Assembly: GCA_964500725.1 (NCBI GenBank)
Contig: CAZCNP010000001.1
Span: 64,766-128,765, forward strand
Source of the DNA: an uncultured Gammaproteobacteria bacterium
Lineage (GTDB): Bacteria > Patescibacteriota > Microgenomatia > Daviesbacterales > UBA10151
Direction: 5' to 3'
DNA length: 64,000 bases
Shown: positions 9,073 to 24,243 of the stretch, one piece after another
Layout of the letters: each line of letters begins with the position of its first letter
Position numbering within the stretch: position 1 is the stretch's first letter
Translations under genes and position numbers: made by a program
The notes under the pieces: generated by a model
Told to the model about the DNA's origin: nothing
Seen by the model: the letters and a program-made list of their open reading frames with translations, nothing else
The model's database searches: none

Positions 9073-9076
9073 TGTA
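9049..9076. repeat. ((a/c)attgta)x4 heptanucleotide tract spanning the annotated start codon of pilin 8611..9072
   Basis: Four copies carrying TGTACA palindromes at 7-bp spacing. Confidence 0.85.
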
Positions 9077-9079
9077 AAT

Positions 9080-9907: not shown

Positions 9908-9911
9908 ATTT

Positions 9912-10586
9912 TCATCTTAGTCCAACAGTAGTCTTAAATACAACTGGATCAATCTGGCCGGCAATCACAGCAGGCGCATTAACACCTGGACCTAAAGTAA
10001 ATGATACTGTCACACTATCTTTATAACCTGATTGTGGATTTTTGGTAAATGAACCAGTTGTAACTGACACTCCTGATTGAAGATTTGTATCAGTCAAAAT
10101 CACAATCTGTGTCATTGGATCAGCAATATTACATACTCTACTAACAAACTCTGATTCCGTTTCTTTTCTTAAAGGAGAAGAACCAGCAACATCTTGCTTT
10201 GCAGGATTATCTTGTTGTATATAACCATTAATGCTATGATCCGAAGGCTCAAGAGTAATTCTATAACGTGTGTATGTACCATTCGTGACCACTACCAAAG
10301 TGTTCGAAGAAACAATAGCAGGAGGAGATGGTAACTGCGGGCACACTACATTATCAGCGCCTCTGATAGTTTTATCCATATTATCCAAAACTGCCTGGCC
10401 ATTTTGTTTTATCACAGCCAGTATTTGTGATTTATTACTGCCTCTTAAAGTATTGGTAAAAATAGTTACTAAAATAGTCCCAACTATAGCAACAATAGCC
10501 ATAGTGACTAAAATTTCAACTAAAGTAAACCCAGCACCACTCTTTCTAATCCTGTCTTTGTGGTGCTGGGTAAACCCTTTATTCAT
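9912..10586 (-). CDS. type IV pilin-like protein with a long leader
   Basis: GFTQHHKDRIRKSGAGFTLVEILVTMAIVAIVG prepilin signal. The leader-coding DNA contains the conserved hairpin repeat. Confidence 0.75.
   Translation of the reverse strand: MNKGFTQHHKDRIRKSGAGFTLVEILVTMAIVAIVGTILVTIFTNTLRGSNKSQILAVIKQNGQAVLDNMDKTIRGADNVVCPQLPSPPAIVSSNTLVVVTNGTYTRYRITLEPSDHSINGYIQQDNPAKQDVAGSSPLRKETESEFVSRVCNIADPMTQIVILTDTNLQSGVSVTTGSFTKNPQSGYKDSVTVSFTLGPGVNAPAVIAGQIDPVVFKTTVGLR
10527..10576. repeat. pilin-leader hairpin repeat, copy A (arms aaacccagcaccac / gtggtgctgggtaaaccc)
   Basis: 11-bp perfect inverted repeat within the leader-coding region of pilin 9912..10586. The 44-nt core is identical to copy D. 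Confidence 0.8.
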
Positions 10587-11107: not shown

Positions 11108-11177
11108 TTGATTCCCTGTTTGATAATATATAAATACTAAACATGAAGCAGATATTTCGTATGTCTGCTTCTTTTTT

Positions 11178-11813
11178 TTATCCTTTTTCCTCAAATTTTA
11201 TATCTTTCTCTAGCCTAACGAAATCTCTAAAGTTACTGCCTGCAAATTGTCTTATTTCTCTGGCTGTCCTTGGACCTCTTGCTAACACAATTACATCCTT
11301 GCCAACTTCTTTAAGATACTTAAGGACAGGAAGAAAATCTCCATCACCTGATAATACAAGCACTCTGTCAAAATTATCTTTTTCTTTCATTAAATAAAAG
11401 GCCATCTCAACATCACAATTAGCTTTCCTTTGGGTGCTGCCATTTTCTTGATAATATAACTTTACAGGTTTTAGATATAACCTATACCCAAATTTCTTAA
11501 GCTTCAGATAAAACTTAATCCTACTAAGATGCCTTGAGAGTAAAATCAACTTAGCTTCATCCAGCTTTTTCCCATTCTGTTCAATATAGTTCTCAAGCTT
11601 CGTTTTTAATTTTTCAATCGGCACTGTTTCATTTTTTAGGTAATCATATTTGTACCCATGAACTTCTACCCCGCCAAAATAATACACTTCCGAAATATTA
11701 TATCTTTTTTTAAGGTACGTTATAAGCTTTGCATAATCAATCTTCCACCCTAAACTCTTTTCTCCACCGTAAAAGAGATTTGAAGCATCTATAAAAGCGT
11801 AGGTTTTATTCAT
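11178..11813 (-). CDS. NYN (LabA/PIN-like) domain protein
   Basis: AFIDASNL ... VLVLSGDGDFLPVLKYL match NYN-domain motifs. Confidence 0.6.
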   Translation of the reverse strand: MNKTYAFIDASNLFYGGEKSLGWKIDYAKLITYLKKRYNISEVYYFGGVEVHGYKYDYLKNETVPIEKLKTKLENYIEQNGKKLDEAKLILLSRHLSRIKFYLKLKKFGYRLYLKPVKLYYQENGSTQRKANCDVEMAFYLMKEKDNFDRVLVLSGDGDFLPVLKYLKEVGKDVIVLARGPRTAREIRQFAGSNFRDFVRLEKDIKFEEKG

Positions 11814-11831
11814 TAGTATATAAACTTCTTG

Positions 11832-13040
11832 CTAGAAAAGAGAACACCCTGCATTACCATTATATGAAGCAGTTATCTCAGCAGGAGTCAAAGCTCTATT
11901 ATAAATCCTAACTTCATCTATAGAACCATTAAAAAATTCTCCATTACCTCCATACTGACCAATATAAACATTCCGGGTAGCATCATAAAGCATGGGTGTA
12001 CTAGAGGCATAAGTGCCACTTCCTACTTGATTGCCATTAGCATAGATGGTATAGCCAGTGGTAGTAACTACATAGGTGATATGGTACCAAAAGTCTATAG
12101 AATAGCTGAAAGTGGCATCTGCTCCAGTTGTTATCCATGCAGAACCAGTACCAATATCTCCATGAATAGTGTTGCCGTTTTGCAGCTTCATATCAAAAGT
12201 GTAATCACCTCCGCTTCTGGTACCAAAAATAGCCCCAGTAGAATTATCCGCAGGCTTCACCCAAGCAGATATTGTAAACGGACCAGACATAGATCCTAAT
12301 GCATTAGCACCTAAAGAAACATAGTTGCTTCCATTAAATTGCCCTGCGCTACCAATCTTACCATTGGGATCCCAACTAGCTGTACTCCAGGTTCCAGTAT
12401 GGCCATAACCACTTTTATCTGCAACTTTGGTATCTGTTCCTTCATTAAAATCCCAATAACCAACTAAACCATTTAGCTGTGAACCAGAAGCATCACAGGT
12501 AGGCCTTGTTTTAAGGGTTCCCCCGGAAGTCATGGAAATAGATTTAGTGCTTGTAGTCCTAGTATTTTCCAGAGAAACTGCAAAAGAAGTGCATTTTGGC
12601 TCTCCGAAGTTCATCGTACCCGTCAGAAGATCAAAATTTATTGTATAAGCCGATCCTGGAAATCCCGGGTCTGACGGGCAAGCAACACCAACTCTTGATA
12701 TACTGTCTATTTGGATATTTGAATCTATCTTACTAATATCCAATTCTTTCTTTGAATAAAAAGTCCCTGATTCCTCACAACCTAAAGTTACAGTCTTACG
12801 GTCATCTGAAAATACTACTTGCCATTTAGCGCTGAAAGCGCTCTGGCATTTGTTATTAGAGCTGGCATTTGTCTGTGCTTGTCTTATTAAACCTTGAATA
12901 TCAGAAGTTGCGCTTTTTAATTTCTGGTCTTCTCCAAAATTGGCAAAATTAGCAAAAGCAAAAACTCCTGTTATAGCCATAATGGTCACAACCACCAAAA
13001 GCTCAACTAAAGTAAAGGCATTAGGGACAGCTTTAGCCAT
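11832..13040 (-). CDS. type IV pilin fused to a C-terminal LamG/concanavalin-like domain
   Basis: N-terminus AFTLVELLVVVTIMAITGV. C-terminus GNGEFFNGSIDEVRIYNRALTPAEI is the LamG hallmark. Confidence 0.7.
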   Translation of the reverse strand: MAKAVPNAFTLVELLVVVTIMAITGVFAFANFANFGEDQKLKSATSDIQGLIRQAQTNASSNNKCQSAFSAKWQVVFSDDRKTVTLGCEESGTFYSKKELDISKIDSNIQIDSISRVGVACPSDPGFPGSAYTINFDLLTGTMNFGEPKCTSFAVSLENTRTTSTKSISMTSGGTLKTRPTCDASGSQLNGLVGYWDFNEGTDTKVADKSGYGHTGTWSTASWDPNGKIGSAGQFNGSNYVSLGANALGSMSGPFTISAWVKPADNSTGAIFGTRSGGDYTFDMKLQNGNTIHGDIGTGSAWITTGADATFSYSIDFWYHITYVVTTTGYTIYANGNQVGSGTYASSTPMLYDATRNVYIGQYGGNGEFFNGSIDEVRIYNRALTPAEITASYNGNAGCSLF

Positions 13041-13046
13041 GTTTTA

Positions 13047-13078
13047 ATTGTACATTGTACATTGTACATTGTACATTG
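13047..13078. repeat. (attgtac)x4.5 heptanucleotide tract between a pilin stop and the pilin-LamG start
   Basis: Same unit as 9049-9076. Lies 6 nt upstream of the ATG of 11832..13040. Confidence 0.85.
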
Positions 13079-13079
13079 C

Positions 13080-13538
13080 TTAAGGTGGAGTAACTACAAA
13101 ATTATAATCACTAAAATCAGGCGCAAGAGGCCATGAAGTACCACAGCTGACTGGAAGAGATTGCGGGGGAGAAGGAGGGTTTTCCAGCTTGGCATAAAGA
13201 CAATAGCTTGTGCAATTATTTCCTGCTGCATCACAACCTAAAGGAACATAACCATATCCTTGAGGAATTTGGGTCATATAATTTCTTCGGCTACCCGCAC
13301 AAGGAGATCCTTGGCTAATATTACATAAATAACCAATCTGCCCCGGATAAGCATCCGCTTCTGTCACATATTGTTCCAGAGCCAGCTGAATGGATTTTAA
13401 ATCTGCCTGCCTTTTGCTGTCCCTGCCTTGTTTTAAGACAGAGGAATATAAAATCAAACCAATAGCAGAAAGTATAGCAATAATGCTGATTGTTATTAAA
13501 AGCTCAATTAAGGTGAAACCTTTTTTTTGGGCAGGCAT
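13080..13538 (-). CDS. type IV pilin (PilA/GspG-like)
   Basis: KKGFTLIELLITISIIAILSAIGL...RQADLKSIQLALEQY. Confidence 0.8.
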   Translation of the reverse strand: MPAQKKGFTLIELLITISIIAILSAIGLILYSSVLKQGRDSKRQADLKSIQLALEQYVTEADAYPGQIGYLCNISQGSPCAGSRRNYMTQIPQGYGYVPLGCDAAGNNCTSYCLYAKLENPPSPPQSLPVSCGTSWPLAPDFSDYNFVVTPP

Positions 13539-13575
13539 AACTTTAATTTAACACATAATCTTAAACTTTTGAACT

Positions 13576-13995
13576 TCAGTTTTCATAATATAAATCTAAA
13601 AAATCTTTTGCAGAGATAATCTCTATGTTTTTAAACTTTTTAAGAGAGAGTAGATGCTTTTTATCCCCGGAAATAATATACTCAGCTTTTGCCTCCTGGG
13701 CAGCTTCTAAAATTTTATTGTCCTTGGGATAGGTTTGTATCACTTTAACAATAACCTGGGGAGAAACCAGAATAGCAAACTCACCAATTCCTTTTATAAC
13801 TTCCTTTACTTCTTCCGCTGACCAACCAAATTTATTCTGCAGGTTTCTGGCAACCTCCAATAATATTGCATTACTTGTAAAAAGTTCTATGTCTCCTTTT
13901 TTAGCCAGTTCTAAACATTGCCTTGGGTTACCACCAAAAATAATTGCAGAAAGGTAAATATTGGCGTCAAAAACAACTTTAACCTTTTGCTTCAT
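13576..13995 (-). CDS. PIN-domain toxin (putative TA toxin, TIGR00305-like)
   Basis: VVFDANIYLSAII...ELFTSNAILLEV...ISGDKKHL is the PIN acidic-residue pattern. Overlaps the upstream RHH gene. Confidence 0.6.
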   Translation of the reverse strand: MKQKVKVVFDANIYLSAIIFGGNPRQCLELAKKGDIELFTSNAILLEVARNLQNKFGWSAEEVKEVIKGIGEFAILVSPQVIVKVIQTYPKDNKILEAAQEAKAEYIISGDKKHLLSLKKFKNIEIISAKDFLDLYYEN

Positions 13996-14224
13996 GGAGT
14001 ATACGGTCTATATCATCTTCCGAAGTTATCTTAAAATCCCTGGCAGTTTTCGCACCTCTTTTGTAAATCCTCTGCCATCTCTCTTCCTCAGAAGCATTAT
14101 CTATTAAAGAAGAGATAAAAGCGCTGCGGGATTGACCGCTCGTACTACGGCTTTTCTCCAGTTTCAGAGCCACTCTTTGAGGCATAGATATAGAAATTAC
14201 ATGGGTTGTTCTTTGAATTTTCAT
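13979..14224 (-). CDS. ribbon-helix-helix (CopG-like) antitoxin
   Basis: VISISMPQRVALKLEK matches an RHH beta-strand and helix. Its 3' end overlaps the PIN gene by 17 nt. Confidence 0.5.
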   Translation of the reverse strand: MKIQRTTHVISISMPQRVALKLEKSRSTSGQSRSAFISSLIDNASEEERWQRIYKRGAKTARDFKITSEDDIDRILHEAKG

Positions 14225-14284
14225 ACAGTGTAATAATAATTTATTTCTTAAGTTCTGTCAATATAACAAATTCAGTCAATTGTT

Positions 14285-14740
14285 TTATGGTGATGAGACT
14301 GAATAATGATAAGTACTTGCGCCAGATATAGTATTAGGGCATTCTGTAACTAAGTTATTATTGGATGAATTTTCCATTTCAGCAAATAAGCAATATTTAG
14401 TGCAATTATTACTAACATTATCACATCCTGTTGCATTTGCTGAAGTAGCAGAAACATACAAAGGAATATATAAATATGGGTGATTTGTAGTATCTACTGC
14501 CTCAGTTGGAACCTGGTTTAAATAAGGAGACCATGAAGGAGCAGGAAGAGATAAAGGATATGAGGTATTATCCCTATAATATTGTTCCAGGGCAGACTGG
14601 ATCTGTTTTAAATCAGATTTTCTTTGAGAGTCTCTGGCATTTTTAGTTAAATTATCATAAGAGGCAATAGAAATTGCCATCAAAATAGCAATTATAGAAA
14701 TAGTCACCAAAAGTTCAATTAAAGTAAAACCATTTTTCAT
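14285..14740 (-). CDS. type IV pilin
   Basis: MKNGFTLIELLVTISIIAILMAISIA...DLKQIQSALEQYY. Confidence 0.8.
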   Translation of the reverse strand: MKNGFTLIELLVTISIIAILMAISIASYDNLTKNARDSQRKSDLKQIQSALEQYYRDNTSYPLSLPAPSWSPYLNQVPTEAVDTTNHPYLYIPLYVSATSANATGCDNVSNNCTKYCLFAEMENSSNNNLVTECPNTISGASTYHYSVSSP

Positions 14741-14747
14741 ACCTTAT

Positions 14748-14782
14748 TCAATTGTCAATTGTCCAATGTTAATTGTCAATTG
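14748..14782. repeat. (tcaattg)x5 imperfect heptanucleotide tract immediately upstream of pilin 14285..14740
   Basis: CAATTG palindromes at 7-bp spacing. Confidence 0.8.
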
Positions 14783-14788
14783 TTTTAA

Positions 14789-16678
14789 TTAATTGGGAGT
14801 AAAGTTTATGGTAATAGTATAGATAGAATCATCATTTACTACATTTGAGAGGGAATCCTTATAGTAAGTTAGCACATCGCCATTACCATTCATCTGCTGG
14901 GTAACTGTTCTGGTTTTTCGAACACGATCACCTGCACCAACAGTCACTTCTTGTAAGTCAAATCCTGGAAAATCATTATATTGCTTAACGCGATCTAATC
15001 TATAAAGCCAACTATAATCCATATAAATAACACCAAATTTAAATCCATTGCCTCCTGTACCTACCTTCGTTTCGGTTACTGTCATAATTGCCAGACCTTT
15101 CCTGGGTGCCCGCCAAAAAATAACTGCTGTGTCAATCTGTCCTCCTAGAGAATGGCTTGGGGATAACATCATATAACTCGCTCCCCAAATATTACTATTA
15201 GGTGCTTTCCAATAAGGCTGTCCTGAAGGCACATCCATCCAAATTTCCGGTCCAGCTTCATAATTGGCCTGCTGTGTTGTGCCCCCATATTGCCAGACAT
15301 CTTGGCTGTAGTGGTAAAACCAGCAACGACTCCAGACAGGGTTATCTCCTGAGCATAAAGTAACATTTCCTAGGTTACCTGAATATTCGGAAGCCAAAGT
15401 ATGCGTTGATGGACAAGGCAAATTGGTACAAGTCCTTGAACTGTTACCTCCATCTAAGCTACTACAATCTGTGCCTTCGTTTGCAGGGGAGGGATTAGAA
15501 CAAGTTCTAGTTTGTGTGCCACTAGTACCACAAGCAGTTGCTGAACAAGCACTCCAATCAGACCATCCTCCATTAACAGGACATGCTTGAGTATTGCAAG
15601 CCACAGTTTCTGTTAAACCTCTTGTTACACCATCTGACAATAAACATTGAGATCCTCCATTGGCAGGAGAGGGATTTGTACAGGTTCTAGTTTGTGTGCC
15701 ACTAGTACCACAAGCTATGGCTGAACAACTACTCCAGGCAGTCCAAACACCATCAATCCTCTCCACCGGCCCTTGCTTTAATTTAATACTGACATCATAA
15801 CCTCGGCCATTACAAAGATAGCTTGAGTTATAATAATAAGGGCTTATAGCACCTGTGCTAGCGATAGTACTTGTGGAGTCTCGACTACTATAGTAAGCAA
15901 ATCCTCCTATACCCGGACATGTTCCATAACAGGAAGCCGTACAAGGTGTACACCGGTTTAAAATATTACTTAAATCAGAATTGCTTGGGCAACTCATGTA
16001 GACTGTTTTATTTGCTAGGCCGGCATCCGATGTTCTGCAATGGATGGCAGAAACAGTACTTAACATTGGCACAGTTGGACAAGCTGGACTAAGATCATAG
16101 GGAGTTGTTGTTCCACTTGAACCAATGGTAGAAACTGCTCCTGAAGGCAAAGTAGAACCATTATCATAGACTCCACCTCTAGAAATAGCAGCAATCAGAT
16201 TTTGAGCAGAAGCCCCTACAGATGTTTTACAATAACAATAATTCTGATTAGTTCCAGAAGCAAGACTATTTATACACTGCTGAGGAGTTACACCAGGAGG
16301 CGCGCTATCTAAAATACTACATGCTACAAATGACTTCCCGTCTGAACTGATAACATAATCATTGTCTTTAGGTGGAGTAGGCAAAGTGTTATTTACAAAA
16401 AATGAGGCAAGACTAGATAAACTGCTTAAAACAGGATAGCTAGCTGTTTTAATATTGTATTTTGACTCCATAACCTTGGCTATAGCATCAATATCTGCTT
16501 TTCTTTTAGTATCCCTGGCCTTTTGCCCAACTCCACTATACATTGTCAACCCAACCACACTTAACACCCCAATAATGGCTACTACTATCAAAAGCTCAAC
16601 TAAAGTAAACCCAGCACCACTTTTAGAACTCGGAAATGTGGTGCTGGGTAAACCCACACTTCTTTTTCTCATTTTCAT
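14789..16678 (-). CDS. pilin-like protein carrying two thrombospondin type-1 (TSP1) repeats and a Cys-rich C-terminal domain
   Basis: Leader SGAGFTLVELLIVVAIIGVL, plus WTAWSSCSAIACGTSGTQTRTCTNPSPANGGSQC and WSDWSACSATACGTSGTQTRTCSNPSPANEGTDC. Confidence 0.75.
   Translation of the reverse strand: MKMRKRSVGLPSTTFPSSKSGAGFTLVELLIVVAIIGVLSVVGLTMYSGVGQKARDTKRKADIDAIAKVMESKYNIKTASYPVLSSLSSLASFFVNNTLPTPPKDNDYVISSDGKSFVACSILDSAPPGVTPQQCINSLASGTNQNYCYCKTSVGASAQNLIAAISRGGVYDNGSTLPSGAVSTIGSSGTTTPYDLSPACPTVPMLSTVSAIHCRTSDAGLANKTVYMSCPSNSDLSNILNRCTPCTASCYGTCPGIGGFAYYSSRDSTSTIASTGAISPYYYNSSYLCNGRGYDVSIKLKQGPVERIDGVWTAWSSCSAIACGTSGTQTRTCTNPSPANGGSQCLLSDGVTRGLTETVACNTQACPVNGGWSDWSACSATACGTSGTQTRTCSNPSPANEGTDCSSLDGGNSSRTCTNLPCPSTHTLASEYSGNLGNVTLCSGDNPVWSRCWFYHYSQDVWQYGGTTQQANYEAGPEIWMDVPSGQPYWKAPNSNIWGASYMMLSPSHSLGGQIDTAVIFWRAPRKGLAIMTVTETKVGTGGNGFKFGVIYMDYSWLYRLDRVKQYNDFPGFDLQEVTVGAGDRVRKTRTVTQQMNGNGDVLTYYKDSLSNVVNDDSIYTITINFTPN
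15485..15750. repeat. two ~85-bp, ~90%-identical DNA segments 180 bp apart, encoding the two TSP1 repeats
   Basis: 15485-15570 versus 15665-15750. Also similar to 56105-56215 in the 1094-aa protein gene. Confidence 0.75.
16607..16655. repeat. pilin-leader hairpin repeat, copy B
   Basis: Same arms with a different loop. Here read in a different frame (GLPSTT...SGAGF) within pilin 14789..16678. Confidence 0.8.
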
Positions 16679-16920
16679 AATCCAATCCTTTTTTTTAATT
16701 CTCTTATTGAATTACCACTATATTTTAGTCTTTTTTCTCTTAATCTAGCTAAATTTTCCATATTGAAAGCTTCGTAATAATGAAGAGTCCATGGCTTATA
16801 TCGTTTAGTAGAAAATACTTCACCATTATTATGCTCCAATAAACGCCTTTCAAGATCGTTTGTAGATCCAATATAAATCTGATTATTAGACATACTAACT
16901 AAGATATAAACATAATACAT
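16675..16920 (-). CDS. GIY-YIG nuclease (homing-endonuclease-like, stand-alone domain)
   Basis: MYYVYILVS...QIYIGSTNDLERRLLEHNNG is the GIY-YIG motif block. Confidence 0.75.
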   Translation of the reverse strand: MYYVYILVSMSNNQIYIGSTNDLERRLLEHNNGEVFSTKRYKPWTLHYYEAFNMENLARLREKRLKYSGNSIRELKKRIGL

Positions 16921-16922
16921 AA

Positions 16923-16953
16923 GTGGTGCTGGGTAAAACCCTTTTTAGGCATT
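16923..16953 (-). pseudogene. orphan pilin start fragment (MPKKGFTQHH...) left upstream of the GIY-YIG gene
   Basis: The start context gggcattac and the right hairpin arm gtggtgctgggtaaaaccc are duplicated from pilin 18965..20023 (MPKNSGFTQHH). Confidence 0.5.
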
Positions 16954-16963
16954 ACTTCTATCT

Positions 16964-17008
16964 TGTCATTTTAGTCAGCAAATATGCAAGTATTTGTGGT
17001 AAAATTAG
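16964..17008 (+). promoter_or_regulatory. ~45-bp upstream element (promoter/operator candidate) of AbiEii-like cassette 1
   Basis: gtcattttagtcagcaaatatgcaagtatttgtggtaaaatt is repeated almost identically at 17943-17988 and contains a TAAAAT -10-like box. Confidence 0.45.
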
Positions 17009-17011
17009 ATT

Positions 17012-17305
17012 ATGCAACAAGCATCTATGAACAAGTTCTTGGCTTCGCCGATAAAACAGGCATTTTGGGATTATAATTTTACCGAACACCAGCTTCTGAA
17101 AAAATTGGCAAAAGGCACAAGAGAAGAAAAAACATGGATTATAGGCAGAATTTTGGAAAATCTTCCTTTTAATTCTATATGGAAATATACAACACCAAAA
17201 CAAGTAAAAGAAATCTTTCCATACCTTCACCTGCGCCCCAAACTTAAACAAATCTGGAGCTATACACTCTCTTTGTGGGGAAAATATGAAAAAACCTCTC
17301 ACTAA
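17012..17305 (+). CDS. small partner protein of the AbiEii-like nucleotidyltransferase (putative antitoxin/regulator; not AbiEi-like)
   Basis: 97 aa, overlaps the downstream NTase gene. Paralogous to 17991..18203 (WDYN...ILENL / INYGNL). Confidence 0.5.
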   Translation: MQQASMNKFLASPIKQAFWDYNFTEHQLLKKLAKGTREEKTWIIGRILENLPFNSIWKYTTPKQVKEIFPYLHLRPKLKQIWSYTLSLWGKYEKTSH

Positions 17306-17939
17306 ACTTCAGGAGGAGGTTCTTAAAAACTTTTTTGCCCAGCCAATTGGAAAATCCTACTTTTTGACTGGTGGCACTGCGCTTTCCGGATTTTATTTTT
17401 ACCATCGTGATAGTATTGATCTTGACTTTTTCACCTTTGAAACTATTGAAATTGAGCCTGTAAGACAGCTGCTCGAGATGGTTGCAAAAGAAGCCGGTTT
17501 ATCTTTGGATCATCGCGTGGCAACATCCGGATATCATAAATTTTTTCTGACAGGCAAAAAGGAGGAGCTTAAAATTGATCTGGTCAGAGAACAAAAGGTC
17601 CATTTTGGGGAAATTAAGACTTTTGGCAAAATAAAAGTGGATTCTATAGAAAACATTGGCAGTAATAAAATTACCGCAATTTTTGGCAGGACAGAGGCAA
17701 AAGACTTCATTGATCTTTATTTAATCTTGCAGAAGAAACTATTTACTTTTGAAAAACTCCTAAAAGATGCTAAAAAGAAGGATTTGGGTCTTTCTGAATT
17801 TTATCTGGCCCATATGCTTCTTGAAGTAAAAAATCTAAAAAATTTTCCCAAGATGTTAATTCCTTTTGACAAATCAACCATGAAAAACTATTTTATCTTG
17901 TTGGCAAACAGACTTCTAGTAGAAGCGAAGCCAGAATAA
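17286..17939 (+). CDS. AbiEii/DUF1814-family nucleotidyltransferase (type IV TA toxin-like)
   Basis: FLTGGTALSGFYFYHRDSIDLDFF N-terminal NTase motif. Confidence 0.65.
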   Translation: MKKPLTKLQEEVLKNFFAQPIGKSYFLTGGTALSGFYFYHRDSIDLDFFTFETIEIEPVRQLLEMVAKEAGLSLDHRVATSGYHKFFLTGKKEELKIDLVREQKVHFGEIKTFGKIKVDSIENIGSNKITAIFGRTEAKDFIDLYLILQKKLFTFEKLLKDAKKKDLGLSEFYLAHMLLEVKNLKNFPKMLIPFDKSTMKNYFILLANRLLVEAKPE

Positions 17940-17942
17940 ACA

Positions 17943-17988
17943 GTCATTTTAGTCAGCAAATATGCAAGTATTTTATGGTAAAATTATA
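17943..17988 (+). promoter_or_regulatory. second copy of the cassette upstream element
   Basis: Near-identical to 16964-17008. Confidence 0.45.
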
Positions 17989-17990
17989 GA

Positions 17991-18203
17991 GTGAAAACAC
18001 CTTACTTTATATGGGATTACAATATTAAAAATAATTGGCAGCCTAAAACCCAGGAGCAATGGGAATGGTTTTTAGTACGGAAGATTAATTATGGAAACCT
18101 CAAAGGTTTGAAAAAGGAAACTATCGCGGAATACTTTCCAAAAATAAAACAGATGCTCGATCCTGGCAAACGGGAGATGCTTGCGTACTTTCTAAACCAA
18201 TGA
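17991..18203 (+). CDS. small partner protein of the AbiEii-like NTase (paralog)
   Basis: 70 aa, overlaps the downstream gene start. Confidence 0.5.
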   Translation: MKTPYFIWDYNIKNNWQPKTQEQWEWFLVRKINYGNLKGLKKETIAEYFPKIKQMLDPGKREMLAYFLNQ

Positions 18204-18874
18204 ATTTAACAAAACTGCAAAAACTGGCAATAGAACTGTTAGCGCATTCTCCACTCAGGAACATTTTCTACTGGACTGGCGGAACGTTACTTGCATCTCA
18301 CTATTTACATCATCGGGAATCTATTGATCTTGATTTCTTTAGCGAAAAAAAGTTTTCTCTTGAAGAAATTAACCGTTTCACCCAGGAACTTAAAGAGAAA
18401 GGCGGTTTCGCAACCGTACATTACCAGAAAATATTCGATAGATATGAATTTCTGTTTGAAAATGAAGAACACCTACGGATAGAGTTTGTCTACTATAATC
18501 ACGAGAAAAAGACACTGAGAAAACGAGAACTTCTTAATGGAGTACACATTGATTCTTTAGATGATATTGCTGCAAATAAAGTAATGGCATACTTTGACAG
18601 AAACGAACCAAAAGATTTATTTGATATCTATTTCCTTATTCATAAATCAGGATTCAATCCTTTAAAATTATTGAAACTTGTCAAGCAAAAATTTGGCATT
18701 TCTTTTAACGAAGCATCTTTTTGGAGTGAGGCATTTAAATGTTTTCCCCTTCTTCATACTTTAAAACCCCTGATGCTTCAAAAAGAAGAGGACAAACAAA
18801 AACAATTACTCAAAACCATTGAAGATTATTTCCAAGAAGGCTCCGCAAGATTTCTACATAAAAACCTAGAATAA
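18200..18874 (+). CDS. AbiEii/DUF1814-family nucleotidyltransferase (paralog)
   Basis: YWTGGTLLASHYLHHRESIDLDFF. Confidence 0.65.
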   Translation: MNLTKLQKLAIELLAHSPLRNIFYWTGGTLLASHYLHHRESIDLDFFSEKKFSLEEINRFTQELKEKGGFATVHYQKIFDRYEFLFENEEHLRIEFVYYNHEKKTLRKRELLNGVHIDSLDDIAANKVMAYFDRNEPKDLFDIYFLIHKSGFNPLKLLKLVKQKFGISFNEASFWSEAFKCFPLLHTLKPLMLQKEEDKQKQLLKTIEDYFQEGSARFLHKNLE

Positions 18875-18888
18875 ATTAAAAATCTAAC

Positions 18889-18957
18889 CAATAATTGCTA
18901 CTACTATCAAAAGCTAGCTCAACCAGGGTAAACCCCTGGGGAGTTTTTTCATGCATT
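18889..18957 (-). pseudogene. pilin 5' fragment (MHEKTPQGFTLVELAFDSSS...), truncated
   Basis: DNA similar to the 5' end of pilin 14789..16678 (ctactactatcaaaagct...gtaaaccc); reaches a stop after about 25 codons. Confidence 0.5.
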
Positions 18958-18964
18958 AATCTTA

Positions 18965-20023
18965 TTATATTAAAGGAATAAGGTAATCAAGGCTTTGCCT
19001 TGAAAAAATCATATATCCAATCCCTGGAGAAATTGCAAAACCATCGCCTCCACCACCCACTGAAAATACCGAAAAACTCGCACCTTCCAGTTGAAAAATC
19101 TGAGTTGCACACCCAGTACAACCTGTGTTTATAGCGTTCAATAATGTTTTTGCTTTATTTATGCTGGCGGGAACAGCAGCAAAGGATATTCCTGTATATC
19201 CAGAAAGTAAAGAGATCTTAGTTTGTACAGCCTGTACCCCTTGAATTTGTGAATTAGATGACCCATCAGCGTTGATAAAAAAAGCCATTCCTACAGTGAC
19301 CGGAGAAGTGTTGTTTTGACAACCATCAGAACAGTCTGACAAATAATAGTCTCCATTAGCTGCAACCGTCGCAATAGATAAAATCCCATTTTCTTCTCCT
19401 CCTAAATCTGTATAAAATTTTCCGAGTGTATAAGAACTACCTTTATCTACCGTTAAACCGACAAAGTTGAAACCTGCTGTGAGGTTAATAGTTTGGAAAG
19501 CTGGAGCAGGATATGTGGGCGGACCACCACCACCGGAGGAAGTTTTGCAAAAACAATTAACAGAATCTTGCGCATTAACACATGAATTATTACCAATGTT
19601 ACTCCCCAAAGGAGCGCAAACAGAAAAATTATCTCCAGAAACAGTATCTCCAGAACCATTTGTATTATTATAGTTAGCATTTATATCTGGTCCTACTACA
19701 ATATAGGAAGTATTAGTTGTTCCATCGGGGGTAGGAATTTTTCCAGAGGCAAACATAGCTTCTGTTAATGGTTTATATCCACCCTGGCCACCATTTGCAG
19801 TAGGATCATAATTTGTTTCATAGGCTTTTTTAATAGCATCAATATCTGCTCTTCTTTTGGCATCCAGGGTTGAATTCCTGACTGCTTGAAAAGACACAAA
19901 ACCTACTACAGATAAAATACTGATTATGGAAATAACTACTAAAAGTTCAATGAGGGTAAAACCAGCACCACTCTTTCTAATCCTGTCTTTGTGGTGCTGG
20001 GTAAAACCAGAGTTTTTGGGCAT
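18965..20023 (-). CDS. type IV pilin-like protein with a long leader and a Gly/Asn-rich C-terminal domain
   Basis: MPKNSGFTQHHKDRIRKSGAGFTLIELLVVISIISILSVVGF. The 5' ~110 bp after the TM helix is near-identical to 20070..21152. Confidence 0.75.
   Translation of the reverse strand: MPKNSGFTQHHKDRIRKSGAGFTLIELLVVISIISILSVVGFVSFQAVRNSTLDAKRRADIDAIKKAYETNYDPTANGGQGGYKPLTEAMFASGKIPTPDGTTNTSYIVVGPDINANYNNTNGSGDTVSGDNFSVCAPLGSNIGNNSCVNAQDSVNCFCKTSSGGGGPPTYPAPAFQTINLTAGFNFVGLTVDKGSSYTLGKFYTDLGGEENGILSIATVAANGDYYLSDCSDGCQNNTSPVTVGMAFFINADGSSNSQIQGVQAVQTKISLLSGYTGISFAAVPASINKAKTLLNAINTGCTGCATQIFQLEGASFSVFSVGGGGDGFAISPGIGYMIFSRQSLDYLIPLI
19957..20007. repeat. pilin-leader hairpin repeat, copy D
   Basis: ccagcaccactctttctaatcctgtctttgtggtgctgggtaaaacc within pilin 18965..20023. 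Confidence 0.8.
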
Positions 20024-20069
20024 TACTTACATTTTGTCACAGAAAGAGTTGGGGAGTCAAGAAAAAATA

Positions 20070-21152
20070 TCAGAGGCATCCATTACCACTATTGTAAAGC
20101 AAGCCTACTTCACCGGCAGAGAGAGCCCTGTTATAGATCCTGGCATCATCAACCAAACCATTCATCCATTCTCCTCCTGTTATAGAATACCTTCCCATCA
20201 GAGAAACTCCATGATTATTCGTAAATGAATAATTAGTAGGTCCTGCTTTGAGCTCATTATCAACATATAAACTGGCTTTTGTGCCATCAAAGACACCAAC
20301 AATATGATACCAGCTATCATTTGTTACCATAAACGAAGTATTAACCACCCATGGAAGACCGCCACCACCGTTTTGACCAAACACCGGTGAATTAGCATCA
20401 CTAAGAGCTATCTCAGCAAAAGAAGTATTTGTACCAATAATAGTTCTCCAGCTGCCAGCTCCAGCTGCAGCTGGTTTTACCCATGCAGAAAATGTAAATG
20501 GTAAAGTTTTATCAGTGGGCAACACCTGGCCAGCATTTATATAATCATTGTTACCATCAAACTGTCCTGCATTACCAAATTTGCCCGTACTGACTGTAGC
20601 TCCAGAAGCCACACCATTATGATTATTACCTGATGAGTCTTTCACTTCACCTGCAGTATTGTTCCAATTTGTAGTCTCATCCATCTTCCAATATCCTATC
20701 AGCCCATAAATCAAGCTGTTGGTAGGATCACAGGTAGAATTTGATAGAGAATTAATTTGAGTAATAAGAGTGGTATCTCCTTGAGTAGAGGTAGCACAAG
20801 TACTAGTGTTATCATTCATAGTAGCGCAGACTTTATATGCTGTATTGCTATTTAGGCCACCTGCCCCGGGTCCTACAAAAAATATATATGATCCTCCTTC
20901 CGGAGGAGTAGGGATCTTACCGGAGGCAAAATTAGAATCCTGTAATGGTTTATATCCACCCTGGCCACCATTTGCAGTTGGATCATAATTTGTTTCATAG
21001 GCTTTTTTAATTGAGTCAATATCTGCTTTTCTTTTAGCATCCAAAGCATTAGACCTGACATTTTTATAAGAAACCAACACAATAGTATAGAGTATAGTCA
21101 GAATAGAAATAATAACCAGAAGTTCAATTAAGGTAAAAGCATTTTTCTTCAC
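20070..21152 (-). CDS. type IV pilin fused to a C-terminal LamG domain
   Basis: NAFTLIELLVIISILTIL; C-terminus LVDDARIYNRALSAGEVGLLYNSGNGCL. Confidence 0.75.
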   Translation of the reverse strand: MKKNAFTLIELLVIISILTILYTIVLVSYKNVRSNALDAKRKADIDSIKKAYETNYDPTANGGQGGYKPLQDSNFASGKIPTPPEGGSYIFFVGPGAGGLNSNTAYKVCATMNDNTSTCATSTQGDTTLITQINSLSNSTCDPTNSLIYGLIGYWKMDETTNWNNTAGEVKDSSGNNHNGVASGATVSTGKFGNAGQFDGNNDYINAGQVLPTDKTLPFTFSAWVKPAAAGAGSWRTIIGTNTSFAEIALSDANSPVFGQNGGGGLPWVVNTSFMVTNDSWYHIVGVFDGTKASLYVDNELKAGPTNYSFTNNHGVSLMGRYSITGGEWMNGLVDDARIYNRALSAGEVGLLYNSGNGCL

Positions 21153-21745
21153 TGTGAGCTTGGTTTACAGTAAGGAGTACCAGTTTCTAACCTCGCACAC
21201 ACTTTCCAGGAAATAACACTAGGTCCAAATCTTGACGAGGCTGCAGCTGTTCCCTTTAAGGGTCCCGTTCTATCTGATCCCGTGTTTGCGGCTAGTCCCC
21301 ATGAACCAATATCAATCCAAGCGCTTTCTCCTGTAGCTGCTGTTGGTCCTATAGGGCATTTATCAGCATCAGCTCCTCCAGATGTAACAGTCCACTCAGT
21401 CCCATCTGTTTTCGGGCTTGTCGGAACAGTAGCTGCTATGCTTGTCCTTATACAATAATGAGCCTTATTTGCAGTATCAGCATTATCGACCGGTACCACC
21501 CCTCCGCTGAAGCCAGAAGCAGGTAAAGAAGTATAATATACAGTCGCTGGGGCTCTGGTTGTCTCTAAAGCATTTGCAATAGCATCAATATCTGCTTTTC
21601 TTCTGGCATCTCTGGCATTGGTTTGTGCAGAAGTAAAAATAGTTAGTCCGATTGTTGACAAAATAGCAATTATAGCTACAACCACCAGCAACTCAACTAA
21701 AGTAAAACCACTCTCTAATCTATTCTTATACAATTGTGTTTTCAT
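21149..21745 (-). CDS. type IV pilin
   Basis: ESGFTLVELLVVVAIIAILSTIGL...RRKADIDAIANALE. Confidence 0.8.
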   Translation of the reverse strand: MKTQLYKNRLESGFTLVELLVVVAIIAILSTIGLTIFTSAQTNARDARRKADIDAIANALETTRAPATVYYTSLPASGFSGGVVPVDNADTANKAHYCIRTSIAATVPTSPKTDGTEWTVTSGGADADKCPIGPTAATGESAWIDIGSWGLAANTGSDRTGPLKGTAAASSRFGPSVISWKVCARLETGTPYCKPSSQ

Positions 21746-21749
21746 TATC

Positions 21750-22217
21750 TTATTGCTGTGCAGCTCTACAATAAAAATTAAGTGTTCCTGTAGTAACTAT
21801 TGAAGTTTCACTTGAAGAATTGCCATTACCTTTTTCTAGTCTTGCACAAGCGATAAATTTGGGATCCGAAGCATTAACAGTGACAACATATTGATAACTA
21901 TTTCCACCATAAGCTATTGCGTTACCAGATTTTGCTGTGTCCACAGGATCAAATGGTTGTTGATTATTAGCAAAGATACTAGGACCATAAGTTGGATAAG
22001 TTTCGCTTCCTGGTGCTCCAGTACGGTTTGACTCCATGGCTGTAGCTATAGCATCAATGTCTGCACGCCTTCTGCCATCCCTCGCTTGTTTTTGAGCATT
22101 CGAAAAAGCAGCAACGCCTATCACAGACAAAAAGGCAATAATGGTAACAACTACCATCAGTTCAATAAGGGTGAAACCTGAAGTATTATTTTTAAGTTTG
22201 GGCAGAAACTTCTTCAT
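21750..22217 (-). CDS. type IV pilin
   Basis: TSGFTLIELMVVVTIIAFLSVIGV...RRRADIDAIATAME. Confidence 0.8.
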   Translation of the reverse strand: MKKFLPKLKNNTSGFTLIELMVVVTIIAFLSVIGVAAFSNAQKQARDGRRRADIDAIATAMESNRTGAPGSETYPTYGPSIFANNQQPFDPVDTAKSGNAIAYGGNSYQYVVTVNASDPKFIACARLEKGNGNSSSETSIVTTGTLNFYCRAAQQ

Positions 22218-22335
22218 ATTATTATTTGCTTAATTTTCTATATACTAATCTATTATTGATACAAATCTTTCGGGCTGTCAATACGTCAGTTCAAAGCTAA
22301 ATAGATAGATGTAAATACCACTCCATTAATTTATC

Positions 22336-22412
22336 TCCCCAATAGAGCATAATTAAACTACCTAATACCAAAAATGGCCCAAAGGGGATGGTTTGACCAA
22401 AGTGTGAAGATA
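22336..22412 (-). pseudogene. duplicated 3' fragment of pilD (~85% identical to 23356-23432)
   Basis: Reverse translation gives ...SHFGQTIPFGPFLVLGSLIMLYW, matching the PilD C-terminus KHFGQTIPFGPFLVLGSLIMLYW. Confidence 0.6.
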
Positions 22413-22427
22413 TCAGTTGAGCTTCAA

Positions 22428-23072: not shown

Positions 23073-23316
23073 CTAATTTAGTACTAATACCAAGAACTAT
23101 GTTCTTGATAAAGTTAAAAGCTGAGGCTGTATAAATTTTTTTGGGAAAACCCAGAAAACATTTTTTTACTTCTTTTTCTCCAACAACATTAAGAAGAGAT
23201 TTTATCTCTTCCAGCGAACCAAACATTAGCGTCTGATGGATATTGTCTAAAGAACCCTGTTCTACTTCATCTAAATACCATACACGTTTTGTACCCATGA
23301 ACAAATTATACCTCAA
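23029..23316 (-). CDS. small partner protein of the third AbiEii-like NTase
   Basis: 95 aa, upstream of and overlapping the NTase gene; unrelated in sequence to the other two partners. Confidence 0.4.
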   Translation of the reverse strand: MRYNLFMGTKRVWYLDEVEQGSLDNIHQTLMFGSLEEIKSLLNVVGEKEVKKCFLGFPKKIYTASAFNFIKNIVLGISTKLDEQKYLKSTPRHLG

Positions 23317-24243
23317 TTACTGCCCTAAATGAAGATACCAGTCAATAATTTGACTGCCCCAATATAGCATTATCAAACTTCCTAACACTAAAAATGGGCC
23401 AAAGGGGATTGTTTGGCCAAAATGCTTTTTACCCAGGAGTATCAGACCTACTGAAAATACAGCTCCTGTTAAAAATGATAAAATTAAAGCAACCAGGGCA
23501 TTAGGGAAGCCTAACATCAACCCTATAAAAGCCCCTAACTTAACATCCCCTCCACCCATACCTTTACCGCGGGTTATAATAATCAAGCTTAAGAAAAAAC
23601 CTCCAATTGCTAGCCCCATTAAAATAGATAACAAAAATGGCTGGGCAGTAATCAAAGCATGCCTTTGGAAATAATCACTATGTGGAGGAAGTAAGTATCT
23701 CCCCACTGGAGTCTGAGAAAGGTAAAAGTAAAGGTATCCAATCTTATATATGGTAAATAAAAATAGGGAAACTGCCCCCACAACAATAGCTGGCAAAATA
23801 ACCCTGTCTGGAATAAACATCTTTTTTAAATCTGTTAAAAAAAGAGCTGTTAAAACTGCTATAAAGAATATATTTAACAAAACTTCTATAACTTTAATTT
23901 GAAATTTGAAATTTGAAATTTGAAATTGAAGAGGGGAGAGACCTTGAAAGCTTTGAAAGAAAAGAAATCCTACCAATAATCCTACTGCCACCTCGACTAA
24001 TAAATACTCCATGCCAATTTTTTTCTTGCAATACCTGCATTTTCCAGCAAGCAGGATATAGGAGAAAATAGGAAAAAGGTCGTACCATCTAAGTTCTGTT
24101 TTGCAGAATAGACAATACGACCTTCCCTTAAAATACTTACCAATTAAACTTCGGTCAGCCAATACCTTCGTAAAACTCCCTAAAATAATGCCTATTAAAA
24201 ACCCGACTGACCCCCAAATGACCATTATGGCGCGTACGTACAA
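23317..24243 (-). CDS. pilD: prepilin peptidase (A24 family)
   Basis: N-terminal CxxC...CxxC zinc-finger region and catalytic GGGDVKLGAFIGLMLG motif. Confidence 0.85.
   Translation of the reverse strand: MYVRAIMVIWGSVGFLIGIILGSFTKVLADRSLIGKYFKGRSYCLFCKTELRWYDLFPIFSYILLAGKCRYCKKKIGMEYLLVEVAVGLLVGFLFFQSFQGLSPLQFQISNFKFQIKVIEVLLNIFFIAVLTALFLTDLKKMFIPDRVILPAIVVGAVSLFLFTIYKIGYLYFYLSQTPVGRYLLPPHSDYFQRHALITAQPFLLSILMGLAIGGFFLSLIIITRGKGMGGGDVKLGAFIGLMLGFPNALVALILSFLTGAVFSVGLILLGKKHFGQTIPFGPFLVLGSLIMLYWGSQIIDWYLHLGQ
23899..23926. repeat. (tttgaaa)x4 heptanucleotide tract inside the pilD coding sequence
   Basis: Four perfect copies; encodes FQISNFKFQI. Confidence 0.85.

What the first reader, a model, noticed from the sequence alone, without database searches (positions are those of the whole stretch)
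16601..18960. Composite insertion (GIY-YIG nuclease + two AbiEii-like NTase pairs) bounded by duplicated pilin 5' ends
Layout on the minus strand:
- An intact pilin-TSP1 gene begins at 16678, with the full leader hairpin at 16607-16655.
- Immediately upstream lie the GIY-YIG gene (16675-16920), then an orphan pilin start plus a half hairpin (16921-16953, 'MPKKGFTQHH').
- Next come two tandem cassettes on the plus strand. Each has a ~45-bp near-identical upstream element, a small ORF and an AbiEii/DUF1814 NTase.
- The block ends with a second truncated pilin start (18889-18957, 'MHEKTPQGFTLVELAFDSSS') whose DNA resembles 16571-16620.

The ~2.3-kb block therefore sits between two partial copies of the sequence it interrupted. 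That is what homing-endonuclease-mediated or other target-duplicating insertion would leave. In this reading, a defence or addiction cargo has been inserted into a pilin gene hotspot.
Basis: partly seen in the sequence, partly recalled or inferred. Interest (0 to 1): 0.8.

Follow-up and report, generated by a model that had tools for sequence, protein, structure and literature searches.

The report
Nuclease-hairpin mobile element in pilin leader
A tiny mobile DNA element, made of a hairpin repeat and an 81-residue GIY-YIG nuclease gene, sits exactly at the signal-peptide cleavage codons of a pilus-subunit gene, where it rebuilds the cleavage site it interrupts. The same element occupies that position in pilin genes across many candidate-phyla-radiation bacteria, while the neighbouring toxin-like gene pairs are separate residents.

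Summary
It is not one 2.3-kb composite insertion, though; there are three separate things.

1. **GIY-YIG/hairpin element (16609-16934, about 326 bp).**
   - It lies in the Gly-Phe-Thr codons of prepilin A, has perfect 14-nt terminal inverted repeats and is flanked by a 2-bp duplication.
   - The "orphan start" MPKKGF is the pilin's original start. The element's right end encodes KSGAG, which restores the prepilin-peptidase site.
   - The hairpin occurs in 104 stretches of CPR genomes. 77 of 103 copies have a 2-bp direct repeat in a T|NN|A target.
   - 31 copies lie in pilin G-F-T codons and 26 lie at TTGAC promoter boxes.
   - 79 of the 150 best protein relatives are in-frame GIY-YIG::pilin fusions.

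2. **Two AbiEii nucleotidyltransferase cassettes.** Close relatives place them inside pilus clusters with no GIY-YIG gene.

3. **A 69-nt frameshifted pilin 5′ stub.** It is closest to pilin A (40/44 nt). Its origin is unresolved.

The closest known system is the Ssn nuclease/hairpin-repeat family described in 2025. I rate this a new variant of that kind. Mobility is inferred from sequence anatomy only, not shown.

The parts
16609..16934 (-). Composite GIY-YIG/hairpin element. Read on the minus strand it runs: left end ACCCAGCACCAC-TT, giy ORF, degenerate right end, TT, mini-hairpin.
   Evidence: Perfect 14-nt inverted repeats at 16609-16622 and 16921-16934, 298 nt apart. It is flanked by AA at 16607-08 and AA at 16935-36 (TT on the minus strand), with T and A outside them. 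The same layout is seen in L124, L106 and L114.
16675..16920 (-). 81-aa single-domain GIY-YIG nuclease gene. Its stop overlaps the pilin ATG (ATGA).
   Evidence: PF01541 E = 3.9e-16. G18, R26, H30 and E62 are invariant, and Y5 and Y16 are >=90% conserved. There are 7481 relatives at E < 1e-3.
16923..16934 (-).
   Evidence: I6
16935..16953 (-). Original pilin start ATG CCT AAA AAG GGT TTT (MPKKGF), cut off from the pilin by the insertion.
   Evidence: Equivalent orphan starts lie upstream of giy in L124, L106, L080, L095, L076 and L028.
16652..16669 (-). Degenerate right arm of the giy-bearing element (AGAAAAAGAAGTGTGGGT), now coding part of the pilin leader.
   Evidence: Comparison with the intact right arms AAAGTGGTGCTGGGT in L124 and AAAAGTGGTGCTGGGT in L114.
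16609..16649 (-). 41-nt mini-hairpin copy in the pilin A leader, translated as (G)LPSTTFPSSKSGAG.
   Evidence: I1. It is absent at the same place in relative L124.
14789..16678 (-). Prepilin A (629 aa, TSP1 repeats). Leader MKMRKRSVGLPSTTFPSSKSGAG, then FTLVELL.
10529..10571 (-). Hairpin copy in the leader of the pilin gene 9912-10586, read as TQHHKDRIRKSGAG. Its 19-nt loop is identical to the copy at 19960-20002.
19960..20002 (-). Hairpin copy in the leader of pilin B (18965-20023).
16965..17939 (+). Cassette 1: promoter/operator-like element (16965-17007), small ORF 17012-17305 and AbiEii NTase 17286-17939.
   Evidence: The small ORF has only a sub-threshold DUF6922 hint.
17943..18874 (+). 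Cassette 2: the same 31-nt element, small ORF 17991-18203 and AbiEii NTase 18200-18874.
   Evidence: Homologues at 75-85% identity are common; those whose context was checked (79% identical) lie in pilus clusters.
18889..18957 (-). Frameshifted pilin 5' stub (MHEKTPQ-GFTLVEL...) with an uninterrupted G-F-T site.
   Evidence: D3. The homology ends exactly where the cassette-2 3' flank begins.
23317..24243 (-). Prepilin peptidase (PilD, Peptidase_A24) of the same pilus operon. It would remove the extended leaders.
   Evidence: Precomputed Pfam hits on the source contig.

Best explanation
The interval holds three independent things.

**(1) A small IS-like element**
- Its 16-bp terminal inverted repeats (consensus ACCCAGCACCACTTTT ... 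AAAAGTGGTGCTGGGT) enclose only an 81-aa GIY-YIG nuclease gene. A gene-less hairpin copy of the same ends lies next to it.
- It is inserted in the Gly-Phe-Thr codons (GGT TTT AC) of prepilin A, at a T|NN|A target with a 2-bp duplication.
- The upstream 'orphan start' is the pilin's old start.
- The element's right end reads AAA AGT GGT GCT GGG T + TT, which encodes K-S-G-A-G-F. The glycine-phenylalanine cleavage site for the prepilin peptidase is therefore rebuilt.
- The pilin is re-started at an ATG that overlaps the nuclease stop codon. In many other genomes the nuclease is fused in frame to the pilin instead.
- Inferred: PilD cuts off the whole extended leader, so the insertion costs the host little.
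- Inferred by analogy with Ssn nucleases and other GIY-YIG enzymes: the nuclease recognises the hairpin, probably in single-stranded or extruded DNA, and cuts at its borders with a 2-nt stagger. This would drive spread of full and miniature copies.

**(2) Two AbiEii-type nucleotidyltransferase/small-ORF cassettes.** These are toxin-antitoxin-like and are older, separate residents of the pilus cluster.

**(3) A decayed pilin 5' stub.** It was left by an unresolved rearrangement when the cassettes interrupted the pilin operon.
For: **Shown in the window**
- The arm motif occurs 7 times against 0.15 expected.
- Perfect 14-nt inverted repeats flank giy.

**Shown in relatives**
- L124 (GIY 85% identical) has the clean form: ATGTCTAATAAGGGTTTT | ACCCAGCACCACTT | giy | AAAGTGGTGCTGGGT | TTACCCTAGTTGAGC. 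Its pilin starts at a GTG overlapping the giy stop.
- L114 has the same element inside an RHS core motif. Removing the element and one repeat restores R-F-T-G-H-E-L-D.

**Shown across CPR genomes**
- The hairpin is found in 104 genome stretches from many CPR classes.
- 77 of 103 copies have identical dinucleotides on both sides (about 6 expected). 88 of 103 have T and A outside them.
- The rule also holds for non-pilin copies: 53 of 72.
- 31 copies lie in pilin G-F-T codons.
- All 31 pilin-sense copies stay open 30 nt upstream in the pilin frame, against 51% of non-pilin copies. The left arm is read in three different frames in different genes (TQHHF, PSTTF, YPAPL). The constraint is therefore on the DNA, with selection to keep the pilin translatable.
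- 22 of 26 TTGAC-context copies abut a TTGACn-N16-18-TAnnnT promoter, against 1.4 expected.
- 79 of the best 150 cluster representatives are GIY-YIG (residues 1-81) fused to pilins. Of ten scanned, all have the GIY-YIG domain and eight also hit the N_methyl motif.
- Five of six further short homologues sampled lie directly upstream of a pilin on the same strand.
- The arms co-vary in L203: ACCCCGCACCAC with GTGGTGCGGGGT.
- The catalytic residues are conserved.

**Separateness of the NTase cassettes:**

**Precedent for small GIY-YIG nucleases paired with hairpin repeats:** PMC11893778.
Against: - There is no biochemical or population evidence of movement. Mobility is inferred from anatomy alone.
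- No orthologous empty site was found for the giy element at pilin A. The only close relative (L124) is also occupied.
- The published Ssn-related-motif search pattern finds nothing in the window. Assignment of the protein to cd10448 could not be tested.
- Exact conservation of 12-nt arms across very divergent CPR lineages, and the very frequent in-frame nuclease-pilin fusions, could instead indicate a host function.
- Cleavage of a roughly 100-residue leader by PilD has not been shown.
- My hairpin set was collected with both arms fixed, so it is biased towards intact copies.
Confidence: 0.72

Rival explanations
1. The whole 2.3-kb block (GIY-YIG plus two NTase cassettes) entered a pilin gene as one unit by a homing-endonuclease-mediated or target-duplicating event, leaving two partial copies of the interrupted sequence.
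For: - The stub 18889-18935 and pilin A 16569-16612 are 40/44 identical, far closer than other pilins of the window.
- The stub homology ends exactly at the cassette-2 flank.
- Relative L124 also has cassette 1 next to giy-pilin.
- A Campbell-type integration through a 44-bp homology would give such flanking repeats (inference).
Against: - giy has its own inverted repeats and 2-bp duplication and occurs without NTases elsewhere.
- NT2 cassettes occur in pilus clusters without giy or a stub.
- The two copies have different leaders, and the repeat starts at the G-F-T codons rather than at the block edges.
- A cut at the G-F-T site would not leave a stub extending 44 nt past it.
Confidence: 0.08
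2. A domesticated host system. The hairpin and nuclease are kept by the cell for one of two purposes. Either they make breaks at the 5' end of pilin genes that drive recombination among the many pilin paralogues (repertoire switching). Or they place a single-strand DNA nuclease, made as a pilin leader, at the pilus/competence machinery to process incoming DNA, as SsnA modulates transformation in Neisseria.
For: - Nuclease-pilin fusions are very common and keep long open reading frames.
- The catalytic residues are conserved.
- The arms are conserved across CPR classes.
- Rearranged pilin 5' ends (orphan start, stub) lie next to the element in the window.
- SsnA/NTS modulates natural transformation (PMC11893778).
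Against: - Copies also lie in an RHS gene and at many unrelated promoters.
- The 2-bp duplication rule points to insertion events.
- Only 3 of 11 pilin genes in this window carry a hairpin, and only 1 carries the nuclease.
- There are no functional data.
Confidence: 0.15
3. The hairpins are ordinary structural or regulatory repeats (REP-like, terminator or mRNA stem-loops) unrelated to the GIY-YIG gene, which merely happens to lie nearby.
For: - The hairpins are stable (z = -2.7 to -6.3).
- Many sit beside promoters.
- Most of the 104 hairpin loci have no giy within 8 kb.
Against: - giy is bracketed precisely by the two arms of the same repeat in the window, L124, L106 and L114.
- The arms co-vary with a different giy lineage.
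- The flanking direct dinucleotide repeats are not expected for a regulatory stem-loop.
- No Rfam family matches.
Confidence: 0.05

Closest known systems
Ssn nucleases (cd10448) with NTS/SRM hairpin repeats (Chenal et al. 2025, PMC11893778)
   Same: A single-domain GIY-YIG protein of 80-100 aa. Its gene is bracketed by a hairpin-forming inverted repeat that is also scattered in many copies through the genome. Repeat variants pair with protein variants. That paper already noted an IS-like 'repeat-gene-repeat' layout.
   Different: - The repeat sequence is different and does not fit the published SRM pattern.
- Here the gene can lie inside one split hairpin.
- There is a clear 2-bp duplication and a T|NN|A target.
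- Copies lie inside coding sequence at the prepilin cleavage codons and are translated, whereas NTS is rarely inside genes.
- In-frame fusions to pilins are frequent.
- The hosts are CPR bacteria, which the paper does not mention.
- Family assignment and single-strand cleavage are untested here.
MITE/IS pairs, and REP elements with their RAYT (IS200/IS605-like) transposases
   Same: Short palindromic non-autonomous copies far outnumber a gene-bearing copy with the same ends. Terminal inverted repeats and target duplication are present.
   Different: The only encoded protein is a minimal GIY-YIG nuclease, not a DDE, tyrosine (Y1/HUH) or serine transposase. No such IS family is known to me (own knowledge).
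Rickettsia palindromic elements (RPE)
   Same: Palindromic repeats inserted in protein-coding genes and translated as part of the host protein (review PMC10969869).
   Different: RPEs are about 150 bp and are spread over unrelated genes. The element here targets one specific, removable part of one protein class and carries its own nuclease gene.
Homing endonuclease genes in self-splicing introns or inteins
   Same: A works-like resemblance. A selfish nuclease gene sits in a host gene at a place where the inserted material is removed afterwards, so the host product is unharmed. Here the removal would be by the prepilin peptidase (inferred).
   Different: - There is no intron or intein.
- The nuclease lacks a DNA-binding domain. 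TIGR01453 scores 29 bits against a cut-off of 56.
- A target duplication is present, which homing does not produce.
AbiE (AbiEi/AbiEii) type IV toxin-antitoxin / abortive-infection systems
   Same: The two 217-aa and 224-aa proteins match AbiEii nucleotidyltransferase models. Each overlaps a small upstream ORF in a two-gene cassette.
   Different: The upstream partners are 70 and 97 aa with no AbiEi or winged-helix match. There is only a sub-threshold DUF6922 hint.

Membership tests
GIY-YIG nuclease superfamily | GIY-YIG catalytic domain with conserved Tyr, Tyr, Arg, His and Glu | tested here: met
   PF01541 E = 3.9e-16, 59.5 bits against a cut-off of 22.6. G18, R26, H30 and E62 are invariant, and Y5 and Y16 are >=90% conserved in 28 relatives. 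A profile search hits UPF0213 BH0048 at 2.3e-10, plus SLX1 and I-TevI.
Ssn family (cd10448) | Single-domain protein of about 80-150 aa with no DNA-binding extension | tested here: met
   81 aa; the domain covers residues 1-69.
Ssn family (cd10448) | Top CDD hit is cd10448, or blastp E < 1e-10 over 75% of N. meningitidis SsnA (CAX49033.1) | not testable with these tools
   Neither the CDD nor the SsnA sequence was available, and no SsnA structure is in the PDB copy.
Ssn family (cd10448) | Gene flanked on both sides by a hairpin-forming repeat that is multi-copy in the genome | tested here: met
   Arms at 16923-16934 and 16609-16649 bracket the gene. There are 3 full copies in 64 kb. L201 and L203 show hairpin-gene-hairpin.
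Ssn family (cd10448) | Repeat fits the published SRM search pattern HGTCWY..RNCYNB | tested here: not met
   0 matches on either strand of the window or in the three hairpins, while an NTS control matched.
Ssn family (cd10448) | Cuts only single-stranded DNA next to its hairpin | not testable with these tools
   Needs a nuclease assay.
GIY-YIG homing endonucleases (I-TevI type) | Catalytic domain plus linker and DNA-binding domain; intron-encoded or free-standing in phage | tested here: not met
   81 aa only. TIGR01453 scores 29 bits against a cut-off of 56.05. The hairpin has 0 hits in 2.9 million viral contigs.
Insertion sequence / MITE | Terminal inverted repeats | tested here: met
   14-nt perfect repeats in the window. 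16-nt repeats in L114.
Insertion sequence / MITE | Target-site duplication | tested here: met
   A 2-bp identical dinucleotide in 77 of 103 copies against about 6 expected, and in 53 of 72 outside pilins.
Insertion sequence / MITE | Transposase of a recognised class | tested here: not met
   The only ORF in the element is the GIY-YIG domain.
Insertion sequence / MITE | Presence/absence at orthologous sites | tested here: inconclusive
   The mini-hairpin is present in the window but absent at the same place in L124. No empty site was found for the giy copy.
AbiE toxin-antitoxin | AbiEii nucleotidyltransferase toxin | tested here: met
   PF08843 E = 2.5e-13 and 5.2e-19. PADLOC AbiEii models score down to 2.5e-15.
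AbiE toxin-antitoxin | AbiEi antitoxin (winged-helix, about 200-300 aa) encoded upstream | tested here: not met
   The upstream ORFs are 97 and 70 aa and have no Pfam, NCBIfam or PADLOC hit. DUF6922 scores 14.5 bits against a cut-off of 27.
Type IV prepilin | Gly(-1), then Phe-Thr-Leu-x-Glu and a hydrophobic helix; prepilin peptidase in the locus | tested here: met
   PF07963 hits, KSGAG|FTLVELL, and Peptidase_A24 in the same operon.

The most novel reading that the evidence does not exclude
The element uses the prepilin signal-peptide site as a protein-level 'safe harbour'.
- It inserts at the cleavage codons.
- It makes itself the N-terminal leader of the pilin precursor, either as a GIY-YIG::prepilin fusion or as a translationally coupled ORF.
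- It relies on the host prepilin peptidase to release an intact mature pilin and a free nuclease.

This would be a third route to harmless residence in a host gene, beside self-splicing introns and inteins. It would also be the first bacterial transposable element mobilised by a minimal GIY-YIG nuclease. A bolder extension is that breaks at these hairpins drive shuffling of pilin 5' ends, or that the leader-borne nuclease acts on DNA taken up through the pilus.
Probability: 0.3. Interest if true: 0.9.

Novelty: new variant of a known kind. Interest (0 to 1): 0.78.

Why it matters
- Small GIY-YIG nucleases paired with hairpin repeats were characterised only in 2025. Whether they are mobile was left as a hypothesis.
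- These CPR copies show insertion-sequence anatomy: inverted ends, a 2-bp duplication, a definable target, and miniature derivatives. That makes the question directly testable.
- The preference for the prepilin cleavage codons and for -35 boxes points to a general strategy. In both cases the element's own end regenerates the motif it splits, which would let selfish DNA survive in very compact genomes.
- It also explains a large, unannotated class of 'GIY-YIG-pilin' fusion proteins and unusually long pilin leaders in CPR bacteria, whose pili are central to their episymbiotic lifestyle and DNA uptake.
- Practically, each nuclease/hairpin pair is a candidate sequence-specific DNA-cutting tool.

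Tried and rejected
- **Rfam scan of 9000-24000 at E <= 1:** no match.
- **Published SRM pattern:** no match.
- **Hairpin scan of viral contigs:** none found.
- **Metagenome scan with the 18-mer of the cassette promoter element:** 73 loci, all chance matches. None had extended similarity or an NTase nearby.
- **Homologue search with pilin B, to find relatives spanning the pilin B-pilin A junction:** only partial matches, at most 66% identity over 43% of the protein. The empty-site test for the whole block therefore could not be done.
- **Exact-protein look-up of pilin A:** returned only the source contig.
- **L106 versus L107 difference downstream of giy:** this turned out to be a scaffold gap of Ns, not a polymorphism.
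- **PDB searches:** no solved Ssn protein to compare with.
- **Literature searches for the arm sequences and for GIY-YIG together with pilin or CPR:** no prior description in the held library.
- **Protein-motif reading rejected.** I considered that the repeated GFTQHH...SGAGFT peptide is a protein-level motif. The same DNA is read in three frames and also occurs in non-coding DNA.

Full report
**Setting.** The window comes from a Candidatus Daviesbacteria genome (GCA_016198315.1, contig JACQIW010000013.1). It covers a type IV pilus operon with PilB, PilC, the prepilin peptidase PilD, PilM and eleven pilin-like genes on the minus strand.

**Observation.**
- The pilin-TSP1 gene 14789-16678.
- A stable leader hairpin with arms 16609-16624 and 16634-16649.
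- An 81-aa GIY-YIG ORF at 16675-16920 (PF01541, E = 4e-16).
- An orphan start MPKKGF followed by one hairpin arm at 16923-16953.
- Two plus-strand cassettes of a small ORF plus an AbiEii nucleotidyltransferase. Each is preceded by a 31-nt stretch that is 100% identical between them, although the proteins are only 31% and 25% identical.
- A frameshifted pilin start at 18889-18957. It matches pilin A's 5' end at 40 of 44 positions, far better than any other pilin of the window.

**The hairpin is a repeat family.**
- The 12-nt arm ACCCAGCACCAC occurs seven times in the window against 0.15 expected. These are three complete hairpins, each in a pilin leader, plus the lone arm upstream of the nuclease gene.
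- Two copies (in the genes starting at 10586 and 20023) share an identical 19-nt loop and read in frame as G-F-T-QHHKDRIRKSGAG-F-T.
- A scan of one genome per prokaryotic species found the hairpin in 104 stretches. Nearly all are CPR/Patescibacteria, from many classes, and there are often several copies per genome. None was found in 2.9 million viral contigs.

**Insertion anatomy.**
- Around the hairpin the rule is T-NN-[ACCC...GGGT]-NN-A, with NN the same on both sides. It holds in 77 of 103 copies (about 6 expected), and T and A lie outside the repeat in 88 of 103.
- The rule holds equally outside pilins (53 of 72). The reconstructed target there is (G)T|NN|A(C).
- The conserved stem is 16 bp (arm plus TTTT/AAAA). 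The apex varies in sequence but is still enriched in pairing.

**Where copies sit.**
- 31 of 103 lie exactly in the Gly-Phe-Thr codons of pilin genes.
- All 31 pilin-sense copies stay open 30 nt upstream in the pilin frame, against 51% of other copies.
- The left arm is read in three different frames in different genes, while the right arm always reads K-S-G-A-G-F.
- 26 more copies sit at TTGAC. 22 of these are followed by a -10 box at 16-18 nt, against 1.4 expected.
- In both settings the element's last bases plus the duplicated dinucleotide regenerate the split motif: GGG TTT ACC, or TTGACA.

**Link to the nuclease.**
- In the window, perfect 14-nt inverted repeats at 16609-16622 and 16921-16934 bracket the gene.
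- The closest relative (L124, nuclease 85% identical) shows the clean form. The order is pilin start, then GGTTTT, left arm, TT, the gene, AAA, right arm, and TTACC with the rest of the pilin. The pilin restarts at a GTG overlapping the nuclease stop. The window differs by one extra miniature hairpin.
- L106 has the same layout after PilB-PilC.
- L114 has a complete element with 16-nt ends inside the conserved R-F-T-G-H-E motif of an RHS gene.
- L203 has co-varying arms ACCCCGCACCAC and GTGGTGCGGGGT.
- Five of six further short homologues sampled lie directly upstream of a pilin on the same strand.

**Fusions.**
- Six of the 104 hairpin loci carry one ORF that runs from the nuclease through the hairpin into a pilin.
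- An exhaustive search of 1.84 billion cluster representatives found 7481 relatives.
- 79 of the best 150 have the nuclease at residues 1-81 followed by ...KSGAG-FTLIELL and a pilin body. Of ten scanned against Pfam, all have the GIY-YIG domain and eight also hit the N_methyl motif.
- The catalytic residues are conserved.

**Interpretation.** The GIY-YIG gene and the hairpins form a small IS-like element with miniature derivatives. It is inserted at the prepilin cleavage codons and rebuilds the cleavage site.
- The insertion anatomy is shown.
- Nuclease-driven mobility, a 2-nt staggered cut and removal of the long leader by PilD are inferred.
- The closest known system is the Ssn family of single-domain GIY-YIG single-strand nucleases with their hairpin repeats. 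For that family an IS-like origin was only hypothesised (PMC11893778).
- The published repeat pattern does not match here, and cd10448 membership could not be tested.
- Translated palindromic insertions are known from Rickettsia (PMC10969869).
- No description of this CPR element or of nuclease-pilin fusions was found in the held library.

**The rest of the block.**
- The AbiEii cassettes are separate. NT2 homologues at 75-85% identity are common. In L198, L199 and L200 (79% identical) the cassette again sits in a pilus cluster on the opposite strand, without a nuclease gene or a stub. A third cassette lies next to PilD in the window.
- The stub has its own leader (MHEKTPQ) and an uninterrupted G-F-T site, and it ends exactly at the cassette flank.
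- It is either pilin A's former start or the relic of a close paralogue. The data do not decide between these.

**Verdict.** The underlying finding is a new variant of a recently recognised kind of nuclease/repeat system, with an unusual and testable targeting strategy.

Noticed in passing
window 16965-16995 and 17943-17973; L124 101-141: A 31-nt stretch (GTCATTTTAGTCAGCAAATATGCAAGTATTT) is 100% identical in front of two NTase cassettes whose proteins are only 31% and 25% identical. It is 30/31 conserved in relative L124. It is probably a shared promoter/operator and is much better conserved than the genes.
   Followed up: partly
window 18923-18949 (+): On the plus strand, the pilin stub forms a terminator-like stem-loop (CCAGGG-TAAAC-CCCTGG followed by GGAGTTTTTT) 49 nt after the NT2 stop. 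The relic may be retained as the terminator of the convergent cassette. The palindrome is centred on the empty G-F-T target.
   Followed up: no
26 CPR hairpin loci of L001-L104, e.g. L008, L075, L081: 22 of 26 hairpins flanked by TTGAC sit immediately upstream of a sigma-70-type promoter. The element's last T completes the -35 box (1.4 expected by shuffling).
   Followed up: yes
L114 1950-2290 (Komeilibacteria; also L115-L123): A complete nuclease-bearing element interrupts the conserved RHS core motif R-F-T-G-H-E-L-D of a gene longer than 3000 aa. This splits off the C-terminal part.
   Followed up: partly
L203 1400-1950; L011 5630-5960; proteins P0177, P0190, P0208: Other nuclease lineages carry different arms: ACCCCGCACCAC, TATAACCCCGCACATAAAAC, and a variant read as 'TPYH'. 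This suggests co-evolving nuclease/hairpin pairs.
   Followed up: partly
window 14789-16678, 11832-13040, 20070-21152: These pilins carry eukaryote-like adhesion modules: two thrombospondin type-1 repeats in pilin A, and Laminin_G_3 domains in two others.
   Followed up: no
window 13576-14224, 11178-11813, 22428-23316: Further small modules are interspersed among the pilin genes: a PIN_3 gene with an 81-aa upstream partner, a NYN-domain gene, and a third small-ORF/AbiEii cassette next to PilD. A similar small-ORF/AbiEii pair lies in the L198 pilin cluster.
   Followed up: partly
L007, L024, L033, L056, L071, L078, L046: A few hairpin-bearing genome bins are titled 'uncultured Gammaproteobacteria' or 'Spirochaetes'. 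I did not check whether this is mislabelling or binning error, or real spread outside CPR.
   Followed up: no
window 10529-10571 and 19960-20002: In this genome the two hairpins lack the usual TTTT/AAAA stem extension. They share an unpaired 19-nt loop encoding the basic peptide KDRIRK, as if the loop had been adapted to serve as a prepilin leader.
   Followed up: no
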